From Escherichia phage P896: a stretch of 64,000 nucleotides of DNA. The stretch lies in the sequence record OL451225.1; one strand, given 5' to 3'. Below, piece after piece: positions 44,970 to 49,877 of this stretch; positions within the stretch are counted from its first letter, which is position 1; every line of letters begins with the position of its first letter. A program made the position numbers and the translations under genes. Under the pieces are notes generated by a model. The model was not told the DNA's origin. It saw only the letters and a list, made by a program, of their open reading frames with translations, and made no database searches.

Positions 44970-45042
44970 TTTATTATCCCGTTTGTTTATTTGTTAACTC
45001 AGTATGGAATCATTATGCCTTAGTTAAATTCCAAAGTACATA
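44970..45042 (-). promoter_or_regulatory. early promoter cassette, CAGTATGG class
   Basis: Conserved GTTAACTCAGTATGGAATCATTATGC block upstream of gene 44526..44969. Confidence 0.45.
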
Positions 45043-45339
45043 TTAATTTTCAGAAGTTGGGAAATAAACTTCAAAGTCATACATGTTTACTACTGCAGAC
45101 GCGATTGCTTGGTACTGCATACCCAAGAAAGTTTTCTTGTTCTTACGCCACAAGTTAACCATTTCTGTTTTGATGCATGCCAGGGAGTAGTTGGATGCAG
45201 GATACTGTTTGATGATTGCAACAACTTCTTCAGAAGCAGTTTCGCACAATTCATTCAGTTGAGCTTCAATTTTAGCAGAAATGATTGCTTTGTTTTCTTC
45301 TTGAGCTTGGGTAGCGTGCCATGCAGGTGCGTTGAACAT
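45043..45339 (-). CDS. hypothetical protein, 98 aa
   Basis: ORF track; ATG with GGAGAATAAA RBS. Confidence 0.5.
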   Translation of the reverse strand: MFNAPAWHATQAQEENKAIISAKIEAQLNELCETASEEVVAIIKQYPASNYSLACIKTEMVNLWRKNKKTFLGMQYQAIASAVVNMYDFEVYFPTSEN

Positions 45340-45421
45340 TTTATTCTCCAGTGTTTTATTTGTTAACTCAGTATGGGATAATTATACACTATCCCACCTG
45401 GAAGTAAAACACTTTTCTCAA
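45340..45421 (-). promoter_or_regulatory. early promoter cassette (-10 TATAAT bracketed by ATGGGATA/TATCCCAC)
   Basis: Read on the minus strand. Confidence 0.5.
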
Positions 45422-45847: not shown

Positions 45848-45945
45848 TTTATTTCTCCAAAGTTTTGTTTTGATTCAGTGTGTAACTCAGTATGGAATCA
45901 TTATGCACCCGGTCAATCCGGATGTACACTACTTTTTGAAGAAAA
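45848..45945 (-). promoter_or_regulatory. early promoter cassette (-35 GTGTACA, 17-bp spacer with CCGG inverted repeat, -10 CATAAT, CAGTATGG leader)
   Basis: Read on the minus strand. Confidence 0.5.
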
Positions 45946-45970
45946 TTTCAAATTTATTCGGGGTATAAAA

Positions 45971-45994
45971 AAACCCCAACCTTTCGGAAGGGGC
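45971..45994 (-). terminator. hairpin CCCCUUCC-GAAA-GGUUGGGG (GNRA loop, two U-U mismatches) followed by UUUUUUUAUA
   Basis: Read on the minus strand after the stop of gene 46033..46416. Confidence 0.45.
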
Positions 45995-46032: not shown

Positions 46033-46416
46033 TTATCCGCGAGCAAAGGCCATTGCAGCGCGTTCGTTGGCACGGTCAGTGATGTTCAAGAATTTATCAC
46101 GAGCGATTTCGATTGGAGCACCAACCCAGTCAGCGGCACCATTACCTGGAGACTGTTTAGGACGAACCATATAAGTTGAAACTTTGGAACCAGCTAGTTT
46201 AGCACCAGGTGCTGCTGCGTTTTTAACATCTTTAGCTTTGATGCCAAACCCAGTTACGATACCCCAAGAAACGCCATTAACTGGTTTCTTGAACATAACA
46301 CGGTCACCAATTGAAACACCGGCTTTTTCTGGAGCCACTAAAGAAAATTTGCCAGCTTCAGTCAGTACGGATTCGGTGATGGTATTGCGATTTAAAAATT
46401 CTGCATATGTAAGCAT
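46033..46416 (-). CDS. hypothetical protein, 127 aa
   Basis: ORF track; ATG with GGAAAAA RBS. Confidence 0.5.
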   Translation of the reverse strand: MLTYAEFLNRNTITESVLTEAGKFSLVAPEKAGVSIGDRVMFKKPVNGVSWGIVTGFGIKAKDVKNAAAPGAKLAGSKVSTYMVRPKQSPGNGAADWVGAPIEIARDKFLNITDRANERAAMAFARG

Positions 46417-46458
46417 TTTGTTTTTCCATTATTAGGGTTGTTGTTAATATTTATATTC

Positions 46459-46521
46459 CATAGTACCGGATGCACCATCCGCTCGGATTTCTCATACTAC
46501 CGGACGCACCGTCCGCTCTGG
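46459..46521 (-). ncRNA. candidate structured RNA or regulatory element: two tandem 28-bp repeats each forming a 6-bp hairpin with a compensatory base-pair change
   Basis: CGGATGcacCATCCG and CGGACGcacCGTCCG differ by a T-A to C-G covarying pair; lies in a 237-bp ORF-free gap downstream of the tRNAs. Confidence 0.3.
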
Positions 46522-46653
46522 AAAAACTCCGTAAAAGGGTGCGCCGTTTCTGCTGTGATATAAGGGGACATCAACAAATCGTAAAGATTTATTAATGCCA
46601 GTCCTTAAACAGGGAACATCAGTCCGACGACTTACCGGTAGCGACCCGGTTTC

Positions 46654-46893
46654 TCATTCAATTGTAATAGCTAATTTGACTTTAACAACCTTATAATTGG
46701 AATCAAGGTCATTGAATTCCATAAAATTTGTTGCTAATCTGCGAGTCGGGAAACTTAGATATTTATTATGCTCAGGTGGAGCAGTTAATGCAAACCATGG
46801 GACTTGTTTATCATTTTCATCAAACTCATCAAAGCTATAAACCAGCTCGTTGCTGGTTATATCCATAACTGCATATGATTCACTAATAACCAT
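46654..46893 (-). CDS. hypothetical protein, 79 aa
   Basis: ORF 46654..46938 begins on TTG and would overlap tRNA-Arg; trimmed to ATG at 46893 with GAGGATATT RBS. Confidence 0.45.
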   Translation of the reverse strand: MVISESYAVMDITSNELVYSFDEFDENDKQVPWFALTAPPEHNKYLSFPTRRLATNFMEFNDLDSNYKVVKVKLAITIE

Positions 46894-46908: not shown

Positions 46909-46985
46909 TGGTCGGGGTGGTGGGATTCTAACCCACAACCTACGGTTTAGAAGACCGTTGCTCTATACAATTAAGCTACACCCCG
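46909..46985 (-). tRNA. tRNA-Arg (anticodon UCU), CCA encoded
   Basis: Minus strand folds as a cloverleaf: acceptor CGGGGUG/CACCCCG, anticodon loop CUUCUAA, T-loop GGUUAGAAUCC, 3' ACCA. Confidence 0.75.
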
Positions 46986-47061
46986 GGTGGCCCCATCCGG
47001 ACTTGAACCGGAAACCTGCCAGTTATGAGCCGGATGCTCTAACCAATTGAGCTACAGGGCC
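46986..47061 (-). tRNA. tRNA with CAU anticodon (Ile2-type or Met), directly abutting tRNA-Arg
   Basis: GGCCCUGUAGCUCAAUUGGUUAGAGC D-arm, anticodon loop CUCAUAA, T-arm UCCGGUUCAAGUCCGGA; acceptor has two G-U pairs and the anticodon stem one mismatch. Confidence 0.6.
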
Positions 47062-48561: not shown

Positions 48562-48840
48562 CTAAATTTTTGTATATTGTCCAGCTTTAACTTTTTTCAG
48601 TTCACGAGGGCTTACCGCGTAAGTGAATGGAGCATTCCAGGAAGAACTGACTTTGTAACCTTTAGTCAACATCATTGCTGAAACTTTCTTGTTATCAGGA
48701 CCGTTTTCGCCTTTAACAAGAAACAACTCAAATGCGCCCCCATCAACCGGTTTGGCCTTAACCATCAGATGTCCTTTCAGGTCTTCCAGCATATCCGGGT
48801 GACTAATTGATTCGTTAATAAATTCTTGATAAGTTTTCAT
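48562..48840 (-). CDS. internal-protein-like head protein (MKTYQEFINE start)
   Basis: 92 aa with N-terminal capsid-targeting-like sequence. Confidence 0.55.
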   Translation of the reverse strand: MKTYQEFINESISHPDMLEDLKGHLMVKAKPVDGGAFELFLVKGENGPDNKKVSAMMLTKGYKVSSSWNAPFTYAVSPRELKKVKAGQYTKI

Positions 48841-48895
48841 TAGTAGCTCCAGTAGTTGATGGGATAATTATACTGCAACTATCCCATCGTGTACA
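48841..48895 (-). promoter_or_regulatory. early promoter cassette (-35 GTACAC, 16-bp spacer, -10 TATAAT bracketed by GATGGGATA/TATCCCATC)
   Basis: Read on the minus strand. Confidence 0.55.
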
Positions 48896-49195
48896 TTACA
48901 TTTTTGAACCACGAATTACACCATAAGCGGCGAAGTCGTCAGAAATATCTTTAGGTGAGTTCTTACCAGTTTCAATGAAGGCAATGCTTGACTTCTGACT
49001 AAAAGAGGTAATTTTGTTATAGTTGGAGTCAAGGAAGGTATAACCATTTTTGCGTAGCTGGTCAAAGTCTTCAGCGTCGCCTTTGCCTTTGAAGTCAACC
49101 CATTTGTAGGTGTTTTTCTTCTGAAGACCCAGAGGCCAGGTTTTTGCTTCTGCCAGGTAATTGTTTTCTACCAAAAATTCATGAAAAGTTTGCAT
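48896..49195 (-). CDS. internal-protein-like protein (MQTFHEFLVE start)
   Basis: 99 aa; divergent targeting-like N-terminus. Confidence 0.5.
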   Translation of the reverse strand: MQTFHEFLVENNYLAEAKTWPLGLQKKNTYKWVDFKGKGDAEDFDQLRKNGYTFLDSNYNKITSFSQKSSIAFIETGKNSPKDISDDFAAYGVIRGSKM

Positions 49196-49203
49196 TTGAA
49201 ATC

Positions 49204-49476
49204 CTATTTTAGATAAATTGCATATTTTTTATAACCAGCTGTCTCATGACGGAGACCCTTGTCATTGGCAAAACGCTCAATGTTATTAATTTGGTTCTGG
49301 TCAAGTTCTGAAATGTCAAACGCGAAAAAGTTGCGTTTGTTACCAATTGTTATATGGTCAGTCAAGTCAATGCTATACAGGTGATTGATATTGTCAATCA
49401 TAGCTTTGACTGCTTTACTAATTTTTACTTCTTCATTCAGTTGGGACTCGTTGAAAAGTTCATTGAAAGTTTTCAT
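49204..49476 (-). CDS. internal-protein-like protein (MKTFNELFNE start)
   Basis: 90 aa; divergent targeting-like N-terminus. Confidence 0.5.
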   Translation of the reverse strand: MKTFNELFNESQLNEEVKISKAVKAMIDNINHLYSIDLTDHITIGNKRNFFAFDISELDQNQINNIERFANDKGLRHETAGYKKYAIYLK

Positions 49477-49484
49477 AAGAAACC

Positions 49485-49817
49485 TTATTTATATAGTTTT
49501 GCCAGTTCTTTACGTCCGCGAGCAGACATAATAAATTGTTCATCGCCAATTTTAAAATAAGCCATACCACCGTCAACAGCGATACCAATTTCTTTAGTAC
49601 CTTCTTTGCCTTTCCACTTGCCACCAGATTTCAGAACAGCTTCAACTGCAGCTTTGGAATATTTGGACGTTTGAAAACGTTCATTACCAATCTGAAAGAA
49701 AACACCATCTGCATTTTTGGTTAAACCAAATTTCAGAGAGCCTTCACTATCATCAATTGATTTGGTCTCATTGATGGCGGATTCGGCTAAAAACTCGTTG
49801 TAAGTTTTGATGTTCAT
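49485..49817 (-). CDS. internal-protein-like protein (MNIKTYNEFLAE start)
   Basis: ORF 49485..49850 trimmed to ATG at 49817 with GGAG RBS; 110 aa. Confidence 0.5.
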   Translation of the reverse strand: MNIKTYNEFLAESAINETKSIDDSEGSLKFGLTKNADGVFFQIGNERFQTSKYSKAAVEAVLKSGGKWKGKEGTKEIGIAVDGGMAYFKIGDEQFIMSARGRKELAKLYK

Positions 49818-49877
49818 ATTAACTCCGTTTGTTCGTTGGTGTAGGAACATAATACTGCGCCTACACTCATTTGTACA
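49818..49877 (-). promoter_or_regulatory. early promoter (-35 GTGTACA, 17-bp spacer, -10 TATTAT inside GTGTAGG/CCTACAC inverted repeat)
   Basis: Read on the minus strand. Confidence 0.5.

What the first reader, a model, noticed from the sequence alone, without database searches (positions are those of the whole stretch)
46417..46653. ORF-free gap beside the tRNA genes contains tandem hairpins with a compensatory base change: candidate small RNA
The 237-bp gap between gene 46654..46893 and gene 46033..46416 holds two tandem 28-bp repeats (about 46459..46486 and 46493..46521). Each forms a 6-bp stem with a 3-nt loop; the two copies differ at one stem position by a T-A to C-G covarying pair, which preserves the structure. 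Covariation is evidence of selection on structure rather than on sequence. T4 encodes small stable RNAs of unknown function in its tRNA region, so this may be an analogous RNA or a protein-binding regulatory site.
Basis: partly seen in the sequence, partly recalled or inferred. Interest (0 to 1): 0.6.

Follow-up and report, generated by a model that had tools for sequence, protein, structure and literature searches.

The report
Paired hairpins before a late gene
The two hairpins are real and selected for their pairing, but they are most likely a cis-acting part of a late-gene cassette that replaced the small RNA rnaC in this T4-like phage, while the true small stable RNA in the gap is the already known rnaD next to them.

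Summary
Two 6-bp/3-nt-loop hairpins lie 34 nt apart at 46501-46515 and 46467-46481, on the transcribed minus strand. Eight distinct versions from 12 Gaprivervirus and 5 Kanagawavirus genomes pair at every position. Five of the six stem pairs show compensatory double changes, and the apex CG-GUG-CG never varies.

The upstream half of the "ORF-free gap" (46537-46657) is the ortholog of T4 rnaD (species 2 RNA), which is a known RNA. The hairpins lie outside it. Relatives such as SP18, CJ20 and T4 carry rnaD-rnaC-terminator. In this lineage (15 phages) rnaC is exactly replaced by linker, two hairpins, TATAAATA late promoter, ribosome-binding site and a 127-aa ORFan. That ORFan has an internal-protein-type capsid-targeting leader.

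The hairpins have no promoter, no U-tract and no Rfam match, and they occur only at this locus. The tandem pair is a 34-bp duplication of one unit (hairpin plus promoter-proximal sequence).

Best reading: cis-acting RNA stem-loops at the 5' edge of a late-gene cassette. They resemble the stem-loop/promoter cassettes of T4-like phages but carry a late promoter, and probably punctuate read-through from the tRNA-rnaD unit. The mechanism is inferred. Masking of the ribosome-binding site was tested and did not exceed chance. Interest is modest.

The parts
46986..47061 (-). tRNA-Met (CAU), first gene of the local tRNA/stable-RNA unit
   Evidence: ARAGORN; Rfam tRNA 62 bits
46909..46985 (-). tRNA-Arg (UCU)
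   Evidence: ARAGORN; Rfam tRNA 72.5 bits
46654..46893 (-). 79-aa ORF (phrog_33509, function unknown) inserted between tRNA-Arg and rnaD. Its stop codon lies in the first bases of rnaD.
   Evidence: It is absent in TH40, where tRNA-Arg abuts rnaD as in T4/RB6.
46537..46657 (-). Ortholog of T4 rnaD (species 2 small stable RNA), about 121 nt. This is the real small RNA of the gap.
   Evidence: It is 90-97% identical to rnaD of several hundred T4-type genomes. It is annotated as ncRNA rnaD in RB6 and as misc_RNA rnaD in T4 NC_000866. The consensus fold has a 5' hairpin, a closing stem and a variable central hairpin, with 9 compensated pairs.
46516..46536 (-). U-rich linker CUUUUACGGAGUUUUUCCAGAG. 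This is the left junction of the cassette that replaced rnaC. It contains GGAG and the 5' arm GUUUUUCCA (46519-46527) of a possible long-range helix.
   Evidence: The junction was deduced from SP18 and CJ20, which carry rnaC here. The helix appears in the MFE fold.
46501..46515 (-). Hairpin A, CGGACG-GUG-CGUCCG (repeat copy 46493-46518)
   Evidence: Among relatives, position 4 is A-U in six genomes and G-C in six. CM score 40.5 bits.
46487..46496 (-). TATGAGAAAT, a degenerate copy of the promoter-proximal sequence. It marks the tandem as a duplication of a unit made of hairpin plus promoter.
   Evidence: Kanagawavirus has TATGATAAAT directly after its second hairpin. This is read directly from the sequence.
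46467..46481 (-). Hairpin B, CGGAUG-GUG-CAUCCG (repeat copy 46459-46484)
   Evidence: TH40 and TH44 have A to G, giving G.U on the minus strand only. CM score 39.1 bits.
46448..46455 (-). TATAAATA, the exact T4 late-promoter consensus, 32 nt upstream of the AUG and 11 nt after hairpin B
   Evidence: It is invariant in all 12 genomes, with no polymorphism from 46466 to 46430. The assignment as a late promoter is by consensus only.
46420..46428 (-). UGGAAAAAC, containing the Shine-Dalgarno GGA. This is the 3' arm of the possible long-range helix.
   Evidence: The occlusion it gives does not exceed chance.
46033..46416 (-). 127-aa ORFan with an internal-protein-type N-terminal leader (MLTYAEFL..ITE/S..LTE/A). 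This is the late gene of the cassette.
   Evidence: It occurs only in 15 phages and has no Pfam or PHROG family and no distant homolog. Of 41 variable nucleotides, 40 are at codon position 3, and the protein is 99-100% identical. The leader aligns with RB6 IpI and four neighbouring IP-like ORFs.
45967..45993 (-). Hairpin CCCCUUCC-GAAA-GGUUGGGG followed by U7. It is homologous to the terminator that follows rnaC in T4, RB6, SP18 and CJ20, and marks the right-hand end of the unit.
   Evidence: Homology resumes at AACACTTGCC directly after the ORF stop codon. The simple terminator scan did not list it because of two U.U mismatches.

Best explanation
The window comes from a Gaprivervirus (a T4-like phage). 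Transcription runs on the minus strand in this order: tRNA-Met, tRNA-Arg, a 79-aa ORF, rnaD, then the region in question, then a terminator.

In the ancestral layout, rnaC followed rnaD. In this lineage rnaC was replaced exactly by a cassette. The cassette consists of a U-rich linker, two copies of a 34-nt unit (a GC-rich hairpin plus promoter-proximal sequence), a TATAAATA late promoter, a ribosome-binding site and a 127-aa gene. The product of that gene carries the capsid-targeting leader of T4 internal (injected) proteins.

The hairpins are cis-acting RNA stem-loops on the transcribed strand and form the 5' boundary module of this late-gene cassette. They are made only as part of read-through RNA from the early/middle tRNA-rnaD unit, because the late promoter fires downstream of them.

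Their most likely job is to punctuate that RNA. They would attenuate, pause or direct processing and decay of read-through transcripts, so that the late gene is expressed from its own promoter. They would also provide a short conserved module through which such cassettes are exchanged, in the manner of the stem-loop/promoter cassettes (PeSL/PmSL) of T4-like phages.

Shown: the anatomy, the homology, the replacement of rnaC, the selection on pairing and the strand. Inferred: late-promoter activity, the internal-protein nature of the gene, and the attenuation/processing function.
For: Phage identity and gene order.

rnaD at 46537-46657.

rnaC replaced: SP18 and CJ20 have rnaD-rnaC-terminator. 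The window has identical flanks, with the junctions at the rnaD 3' end and directly after the ORF stop codon.

Stem pairing under selection: 8 distinct versions are 100% paired, 5 of 6 pairs are compensated, and 0 of 500 shuffles reach the score.

Strand: the G.U variant pairs only on the minus strand.

Constraint on the whole non-coding stretch: 12 of 124 columns are polymorphic, against 40 of 128 third codon positions in the adjacent ORF, Fisher p = 2e-5.

Same module in another genus: Kanagawavirus has 23 identical nt including hairpin A, again in tandem. There too it lies directly upstream of an xATAAATA late-type promoter and of a different gene that shares only the leader MLNFNEF..ITESV..TEAG.

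Late-gene character: an exact TATAAATA, invariant, 32 nt upstream of the AUG. The leader resembles IpI and four adjacent IP-like ORFs. Internal proteins share only the capsid targeting sequence (PMC3012670).

A hairpin followed by a late promoter is the routine layout in late regions of Kosakonia phage 305.

Stem-loop + promoter + SD cassettes next to gene replacements, including copies degraded or duplicated by slippage, are described for T4-like phages (PMC2839356, PMC4122927).

No promoter, terminator or Rfam family is found at the hairpins.
Against: There is no U-tract after either hairpin, so they are not canonical intrinsic terminators.

The stability is ordinary, z about -1.1.

The motif is not dispersed. 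A covariance model finds it only at this locus in the 64-kb window and in 100 kb of Kosakonia phage 305, whereas PeSLs are multi-copy.

The invariant apex CG-GUG-CG and the invariant 5' GAG, alongside freely covarying lower stems, hint at specific recognition. A simple attenuator would not need that.

The hairpins have decayed in EcS1, CHI14 and Vettismorki although the promoter and gene remain. The function is therefore accessory.

There are no transcript data.
Confidence: 0.5

Rival explanations
1. The hairpins are specific recognition sites on the RNA for a phage or host RNA-binding protein or endoribonuclease. They would act as an operator or a processing signal, with the apex CG-GUG-CG and the 5' GAG read by sequence and the lower stem by shape only.
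For: The apex and the 5' GAG are invariant in all 8 distinct versions, while stem positions 1-5 all vary. Two sites in tandem occur in both genera. The non-coding region evolves about 3-fold more slowly than synonymous sites.
Against: There is only one locus per genome. No partner can be named. The downstream proteins differ between the genera, which makes autoregulation by the gene product unlikely. The hairpins have been lost in related genera without loss of the gene. The invariance of 7-10 nt rests on few independent lineages.
Confidence: 0.2
2. Translational masking of a late gene in early read-through RNA, as for T4 e, soc, 49 and I-TevI. GUUUUUCCA (46519-46527) would pair with UGGAAAAAC (46420-46428), which covers the Shine-Dalgarno sequence. 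The two hairpins would shorten the enclosed loop. Late transcripts start inside the loop and leave the site free.
For: The 9-nt perfect complement is tied for the longest among 121 ORF starts in the window. The helix appears in the MFE fold of the window and of 7 of 11 relatives. YenP8 changes G-C to G.U. The mechanism is established in T4 (PMC3014915).
Against: The energy needed to open the ribosome-binding region in read-through RNA is no greater than with a shuffled upstream sequence: 78 of 150 shuffles are at least as high for the window, 38 of 150 for Kosakonia 305 and 11 of 150 for IME523. The difference between early and late RNA is only 1.3-4.3 kcal/mol. There are no compensatory changes. 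Homopolymer indels in TH54, TH55 and MN01 break the register. The helix is lost when rnaD is included in the fold.
Confidence: 0.1
3. The hairpin region is processed out of the tRNA-rnaD precursor as a new small stable RNA that took the place of rnaC.
For: The region occupies the position of rnaC, in the same transcript as rnaD. The structure is conserved and covaries. T4 rnaC and rnaD are themselves processed from this precursor, and their functions are unknown (PMC3014915; PMC9697503).
Against: There is no tRNA-like end structure of the kind that makes rnaC and rnaD processable and stable (one search compared). There are no promoter, terminator or defined ends and no Rfam match. In Kanagawavirus the same hairpins lie after a terminator-like hairpin and abut a late promoter, while rnaC is still present upstream. 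The unit is a duplication that includes promoter-proximal sequence.
Confidence: 0.08
4. The element acts at the DNA level or has no function. It would be a palindrome acting as a cruciform or ssDNA hairpin or a recombination site, or simply a slippage duplicate that has not yet decayed.
For: The tandem copy with a degenerate promoter fragment looks like recombinational slippage, as described for PeSLs. The hairpins sit near the junction of a gene replacement.
Against: Symmetric double changes at five stem positions do not fit a dimeric DNA-binding site. The G.U variant would be an A.C mismatch on the other strand. Both copies keep perfect pairing and show low polymorphism relative to synonymous sites, which argues against neutral decay.
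Confidence: 0.07

Closest known systems
T4 rnaD (species 2 RNA) and rnaC (species 1 RNA), the small stable RNAs of the T4 tRNA region
   Same: Window 46537-46657 is an ortholog of rnaD. It has the same 5' end (AUGAGAAACCGGG), the same 3' end (GGCGCACC), the same position downstream of tRNA-Arg and the same conserved fold.
   Different: The hairpins are not part of rnaD and show no similarity to rnaC, which is absent here. The 3' end reads CACCC rather than CACCA.
PeSL / PmSL cassettes of T4-like phages (promoter-early or promoter-middle stem-loops; Arbiol 2010 PMC2839356, Comeau 2014 PMC4122927), and the shuffling of the internal-protein locus (Repoila 1994, as cited in those papers)
   Same: It is a composite module of stem-loop(s) directly upstream of a promoter, an SD and a start codon. 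It sits at the edge of a gene replacement in a hyperplastic region. Part of it is shared between phages whose downstream ORFs are unrelated. A duplicated copy with a degraded promoter is present.
   Different: The promoter is of the late type (TATAAATA), not sigma-70-like or Mot-dependent. The motif is single-locus, not dispersed. No terminator activity has been shown and there is no U-tract.
Inhibitory leader hairpins of the T4 late genes e, soc, 49 and I-TevI
   Same: A late promoter lies downstream of a sequence complementary to the ribosome-binding site, inside a region crossed by early transcripts.
   Different: The predicted occlusion does not exceed that of shuffled controls. The two hairpins themselves do not touch the ribosome-binding site.
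Intrinsic (Rho-independent) terminators placed before late promoters in T4-like late regions
   Same: A GC-rich hairpin sits a few bases upstream of a late promoter, as in Kosakonia phage 305 late genes.
   Different: There is no U-run, the loop is a triloop rather than UUCG or GNRA, and the stem has only 6 bp.

Membership tests
T4 rnaD (species 2 RNA) | Sequence homology to annotated rnaD | tested here: met
   Met for 46537-46657: 90-97% identity to T4-type rnaD, which is annotated in RB6 and in T4. Not met for the hairpins at 46459-46521, which have no match outside 15 Gaprivervirus genomes plus Kanagawavirus.
T4 rnaD (species 2 RNA) | Conserved secondary structure (5' hairpin, closing stem, central hairpin) | tested here: met
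   RNAalifold on 7 sequences predicts 26 pairs, 9 of them with compensated changes.
T4 rnaD (species 2 RNA) | Accumulates as a discrete stable RNA processed from the tRNA precursor | not testable with these tools
   No transcript data are available for this phage. This has been shown for T4 only (PMC9697503).
PeSL/PmSL stem-loop-promoter cassettes | Stem-loop directly upstream of a promoter, followed by an SD and a start codon | tested here: met
   Hairpin B ends 11 nt before TATAAATA, and GGA and the AUG follow. The same order occurs in Kanagawavirus.
PeSL/PmSL stem-loop-promoter cassettes | Promoter of the sigma-70-like early type (PeSL) or Mot-box middle type (PmSL) | tested here: not met
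   No sigma-70-like site is found at the hairpins, and no TGCTT box lies at the right spacing (read from the sequence). The promoter present is the late consensus.
PeSL/PmSL stem-loop-promoter cassettes | Many dispersed copies in the hyperplastic regions of one genome | tested here: not met
   The covariance model R1 finds only the two tandem copies in the 64-kb window and only the one locus in 100 kb of Kosakonia phage 305. VR20 has a single locus.
PeSL/PmSL stem-loop-promoter cassettes | [quoted passage not shown] | tested here: met
   rnaC in SP18 and CJ20 is replaced here by the cassette carrying the 127-aa ORFan. The ORF occurs in only 15 phages.
PeSL/PmSL stem-loop-promoter cassettes | The stem-loop acts as a transcription terminator or attenuator | not testable with these tools
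   A reporter assay as in PMC2839356 is needed. The sequence lacks a U-tract.
Intrinsic terminator | GC-rich hairpin followed by a U-run | tested here: not met
   The hairpins are followed by GUAGUAUGAG and GUACUAUGGA and are not listed by the terminator scan.
T4-type late-gene translational masking (e, soc, 49, I-TevI) | The upstream arm pairs with the SD/AUG in long transcripts, and the late promoter lies inside the structure | tested here: inconclusive
   A 9-nt complement exists and appears in the MFE fold. The opening energy does not exceed that of shuffled upstream sequence, and no covariation supports the helix.
Independent small RNA gene | Own promoter and terminator, or defined processing ends, or a match to a known RNA family | tested here: not met
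   No promoter or terminator is present. There is no Rfam hit at E <= 10 in 46417-46537.
T4 internal proteins (downstream gene) | N-terminal capsid targeting sequence with (L/I)-x-E cleavage motifs | tested here: met
   MLTYAEFLNRNTITE/SVLTE/A aligns with RB6 IpI (MKTFKEF..ITE/A) and with four adjacent IP-like ORFs. The meaning of the motif comes from the literature (PMC3012670) and from my own knowledge of gp21 cleavage sites. Packaging into virions was not tested.

The most novel reading that the evidence does not exclude
The hairpins would be a previously undescribed sequence-specific RNA recognition element. The element would be an invariant GAG followed by a stem capped by CG-GUG-CG, used in tandem. 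A phage or host factor would act through it to process the tRNA/stable-RNA precursor or to gate expression of injected anti-defence (internal) proteins. It would be shared by at least two genera of T4-like phages.
Probability: 0.15. Interest if true: 0.55.

Novelty: new variant of a known kind. Interest (0 to 1): 0.3.

Why it matters
This corrects the annotation of the locus. rnaD is unannotated, or overlaid by spurious CDSs, in most related genomes. The locus also shows a clean natural replacement of rnaC by a late gene for an internal-protein-like product, which means rnaC is dispensable in this lineage.

The hairpin module extends the idea of portable stem-loop/promoter cassettes in T4-like phages to a late promoter and to the internal-protein repertoire. 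Those genes are thought to counter host defences, so the module is relevant to how such genes are moved and insulated.

The hairpins themselves are a small, well-supported structured element. Their function is cheap to test with reporters.

Tried and rejected
(1) A generic motif scan of viral contigs with AGCGGNNGGTGCNNCCGG returned more than 80 unrelated, mostly chance, loci. Only VR20 was relevant.

(2) More specific patterns found only VR20, CIP9 and one metagenomic Kanagawa-like contig with no new stem variants. One pattern with many ambiguity codes returned nothing although VR20 should match. I disregard that result.

(3) Looking for relatives of the 127-aa protein gave nothing beyond the same 15 phages: tblastn against phages, PHROGs and Pfam, and the 5.8-billion-protein search.

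(4) The cassette has no match in E. coli genomes, so there is no sign of a host or REP origin.

(5) Ribosome-binding-site masking was promising by eye and by rank. It failed the shuffled-upstream control and has no covariation.

(6) A conserved leader peptide or small ORF over the hairpins was rejected. The AUG after hairpin A is ACG in TH44, and the AUG in the hairpin B loop region is GUG in TH40 and TH44. The CDSs called there by other annotators lie on either strand over rnaD.

(7) A sigma-70 or MotA promoter inside the repeats was rejected on spacing and on the scan result.

(8) Complementarity between the hairpin apex (GGUGC) and the rnaD 3' end (GCACC) was noted. That strand is already paired within rnaD, so I did not pursue it.

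Full report
**What the window is.** The region matches Gaprivervirus phages (T4-like Straboviridae; DK-13, TH55, VR20 and others) at 95-98% identity. All genes here run on the minus strand:
- tRNA-Met, 47061..46986, and tRNA-Arg, 46985..46909;
- a 79-aa ORF, 46893..46654;
- the gap in question;
- a 127-aa ORF, 46416..46033;
- a hairpin plus U7 at 45993..45967. This is homologous to the terminator that closes the T4 tRNA/stable-RNA unit.

**Checking the observation.** The repeats are real.
- Two copies at 46459-46484 and 46493-46518 are 88% identical and 34 nt apart.
- Their consensus occurs twice in 64 kb, against 0.00 expected.
- On the transcribed strand they read CGGACG-GUG-CGUCCG (A) and CGGAUG-GUG-CAUCCG (B).
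- Energetically they are ordinary: -9.3 and -10.1 kcal/mol, z about -1.1. On this window alone the case would be thin.

**Comparative evidence for the structure.**
- Among eleven related Gaprivervirus genomes, hairpin A has A-U at position 4 in five and G-C in six; counting the window, the split is six and six.
- In hairpin B, TH40 and TH44 carry A to G. This gives G.U on the minus strand but A.C on the plus strand.
- Kanagawavirus phages (Kosakonia 305, IME523, Q7622, CIP9, MY742) carry two tandem hairpins of the same design. These are CAAGCG-GUG-CGCUUG and CGGACG- or UGGACG-GUG-CGUCCG/A.
- Over the 8 distinct versions, every cell is paired and 5 of 6 pairs have changes on both sides. No shuffle out of 500 reaches the covariation score, and all slid registers fail.
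- The apex CG-GUG-CG and a 5' GAG never vary.
- The structure is therefore selected, and it is selected on the strand that is transcribed.

**What else is in the gap.**
- The upstream half of the gap, 46657..46537, is 90-97% identical to a segment present in several hundred T4-type genomes.
- That segment is annotated as ncRNA rnaD (species II RNA) in RB6 and as rnaD, "small, stable RNA; species 2 RNA", in T4 NC_000866.
- The 5' end (AUGAGAAACCGGG) and the 3' end (GGCGCACC) coincide with those of T4.
- A consensus fold of seven orthologs gives a 5' hairpin, a closing stem and a variable central hairpin, with nine compensated pairs.
- Rfam has no model that matches it.
It is a known RNA, and it ends about 20 nt before hairpin A.

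**What the hairpins belong to.**
- In T4, in RB6 and in the Gaprivervirus phages SP18 and CJ20, the order is rnaD, rnaC, terminator.
- In the window and 14 other phages, the flanks are the same but rnaC is missing.
- Homology stops at the rnaD 3' end and resumes at AACACTTGCC directly after the stop codon of the 127-aa ORF.
- The replacing segment, 46536..46033, contains:
  - a U-rich linker with a GGAG;
  - hairpin A, followed by TATGAGAAAT;
  - hairpin B, followed by an exact TATAAATA at 46455..46448;
  - a GGA Shine-Dalgarno sequence;
  - the ORF.
- In Kanagawavirus the second hairpin is followed directly by TATGATAAATA. Other late genes of Kosakonia phage 305 are preceded by CATAAATA- and TATAAATA-type sites that lie just after hairpins.
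- Hairpin A with its flank is therefore a copy of the unit "hairpin plus promoter-proximal sequence" in which the promoter has decayed (T to G). The tandem pair is a 34-bp duplication.

**The downstream gene.**
- The 127-aa ORF has no family and no distant homolog. It is nevertheless clearly a gene.
- Among 12 genomes, 41 nucleotides vary. Forty of them are at third codon positions, and the protein is 99-100% identical.
- Its N-terminus, MLTYAEFLNRNTITE-SVLTE-A, matches the leader of RB6 IpI (MKTFKEF...ITE-A). It also matches the leaders of four adjacent internal-protein-like ORFs in the window, starting at 48840, 49195, 49476 and about 49817.
- T-even internal proteins are diverse and share only the capsid targeting sequence (PMC3012670).
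- The Kanagawavirus gene behind the same hairpins is unrelated except for this leader.
- A virion-packaged protein has to be made late, which fits the TATAAATA site.

**Constraint on the non-coding stretch.** Between the rnaD 3' end and the AUG, 12 of 124 alignment columns are polymorphic. At third codon positions of the adjacent ORF the figure is 40 of 128 (Fisher p = 2e-5). Nothing varies from hairpin B to the Shine-Dalgarno sequence. Both hairpin copies are therefore maintained, not decaying.

**What the hairpins are not.**
- They have no sigma-70-like promoter and no terminator-like site, and no U-run after them.
- They have no Rfam match.
- They are not a dispersed family. A covariance model built from the 8 versions finds only these two copies in the window, only the one locus in 100 kb of Kosakonia phage 305, and nothing in T4, RB6, SP18 or CJ20.
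- In EcS1, CHI14 and Vettismorki the hairpins have decayed although the promoter and gene remain. The function is accessory.

**Mechanism.**
- The late promoter fires downstream of the hairpins. They can therefore exist as RNA only in transcripts that read through from the tRNA-rnaD unit.
- The best-supported reading is that they are the cis-acting stem-loop module at the 5' edge of a late-gene cassette. They would punctuate read-through RNA by attenuation, pausing or processing/decay. They would also be part of the short conserved sequence through which such cassettes move.
- This works like the stem-loop/promoter cassettes (PeSL, PmSL) described for T4-like phages, including their slippage-duplicated or degraded copies and their link to the internal-protein locus (PMC2839356, PMC4122927).
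- It is not a member of that family as defined, because the promoter is late and the motif is single-locus.
- The attenuation or processing step is inferred, not shown.

**An attractive alternative that did not hold up.**
- GUUUUUCCA (46527..46519) is perfectly complementary to UGGAAAAAC (46428..46420), which covers the Shine-Dalgarno sequence.
- This is tied for the longest such complement among 121 ORF starts. The helix closes over both hairpins in the MFE fold.
- It recalls T4 e, soc, 49 and I-TevI (PMC3014915).
- However, the energy needed to open the ribosome-binding region in read-through RNA is no higher than with a shuffled upstream sequence. Shuffles were at least as high in 78 of 150 cases for the window, 38 of 150 for Kosakonia 305 and 11 of 150 for IME523.
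- The gain of early over late RNA is only 1.3-4.3 kcal/mol. There is no covariation, and homopolymer indels break the register in three genomes.
- I keep this hypothesis at low probability.

**The main open point.** The apex and the 5' GAG are invariant while the lower stem changes freely. This would fit recognition by a protein or a nuclease. It is the most novel reading that the evidence does not exclude.

**Verdict.** The gap holds a known small RNA (rnaD) plus a duplicated, structurally selected stem-loop module. That module belongs to a late, internal-protein-like gene cassette that displaced rnaC. It is a new variant of a known kind of element, and its interest is modest.

Noticed in passing
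window 46537-46657 (-); L003, L005, L008: In the related records inspected, no RNA feature is annotated over the rnaD ortholog; three of them (pEC-M719-6WT.2, vB_YenM_P8, UPEC01) carry hypothetical CDSs over it on either strand. Rfam 15 returned no match for rnaD here.
   Followed up: partly
window 46560-46612 (-); alignments A2, A3 and A6: The central hairpin of rnaD exists in at least three unrelated sequence versions among Gaprivervirus phages: the window/DK-13/T4 type, the M719/TH41/TH44/UPEC01 type and the SP18 type. The 5' hairpin and the closing stem stay identical. The rnaD type does not track the hairpin-A allele about 40 nt away, which suggests recombination at very short range.
   Followed up: partly
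window 46654-46893 (-): A 79-aa ORF (phrog_33509, function unknown) is wedged between tRNA-Arg and rnaD, and its stop codon lies inside the first bases of rnaD. TH40 lacks it and has tRNA-Arg abutting rnaD as in T4.
   Followed up: partly
window 48562-49850 (-): Four tandem small ORFs (92, 99, 90 and about 110 aa) all begin with the capsid-targeting-type leader M-K/Q-T-Y/F-x-E-F/L. This is a diversified internal-protein array upstream of the tRNA genes. One of them has TATAAATA only 10 nt before its AUG.
   Followed up: no
window 44970-45050, 45340-45420 and 45850-45930 (-): A repeated intergenic motif is present. It has a T4-type early promoter (TGTACA/TTTAC - N17 - CATAAT/TATAAT) followed by GATTCCATACTGAGTTA. 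It shows up as recurring 'NSVWNHYAL' pseudo-ORFs on the plus strand. These look like PeSL-type early cassettes flanking small ORFans.
   Followed up: no
window 46033-46416 (-): The 127-aa ORFan shows extreme purifying selection. Forty of its 41 variable sites are at third codon positions across 12 genomes, and the protein is identical in 14 of the 15 phages that carry it. Its function is unknown.
   Followed up: partly
L134 553-950; L013 2088-2470: Kanagawavirus phages have an rnaC homolog (86% identical to T4) right after tRNA-Met. It is followed by about 200 nt of unannotated, strongly structured sequence that includes a tRNA-like T-arm (GGTTCGAGCCC). Three consecutive hairpins give z = -4.3 over 176 nt. 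These may be further stable RNAs.
   Followed up: no
window about 45850-45960, compared with L002 2718-3272: DK-13, P8, UPEC01 and others carry an extra 555-nt gene just downstream of the terminator. It is annotated 'holin' in some records. The window lacks it, giving a 600-bp indel.
   Followed up: no
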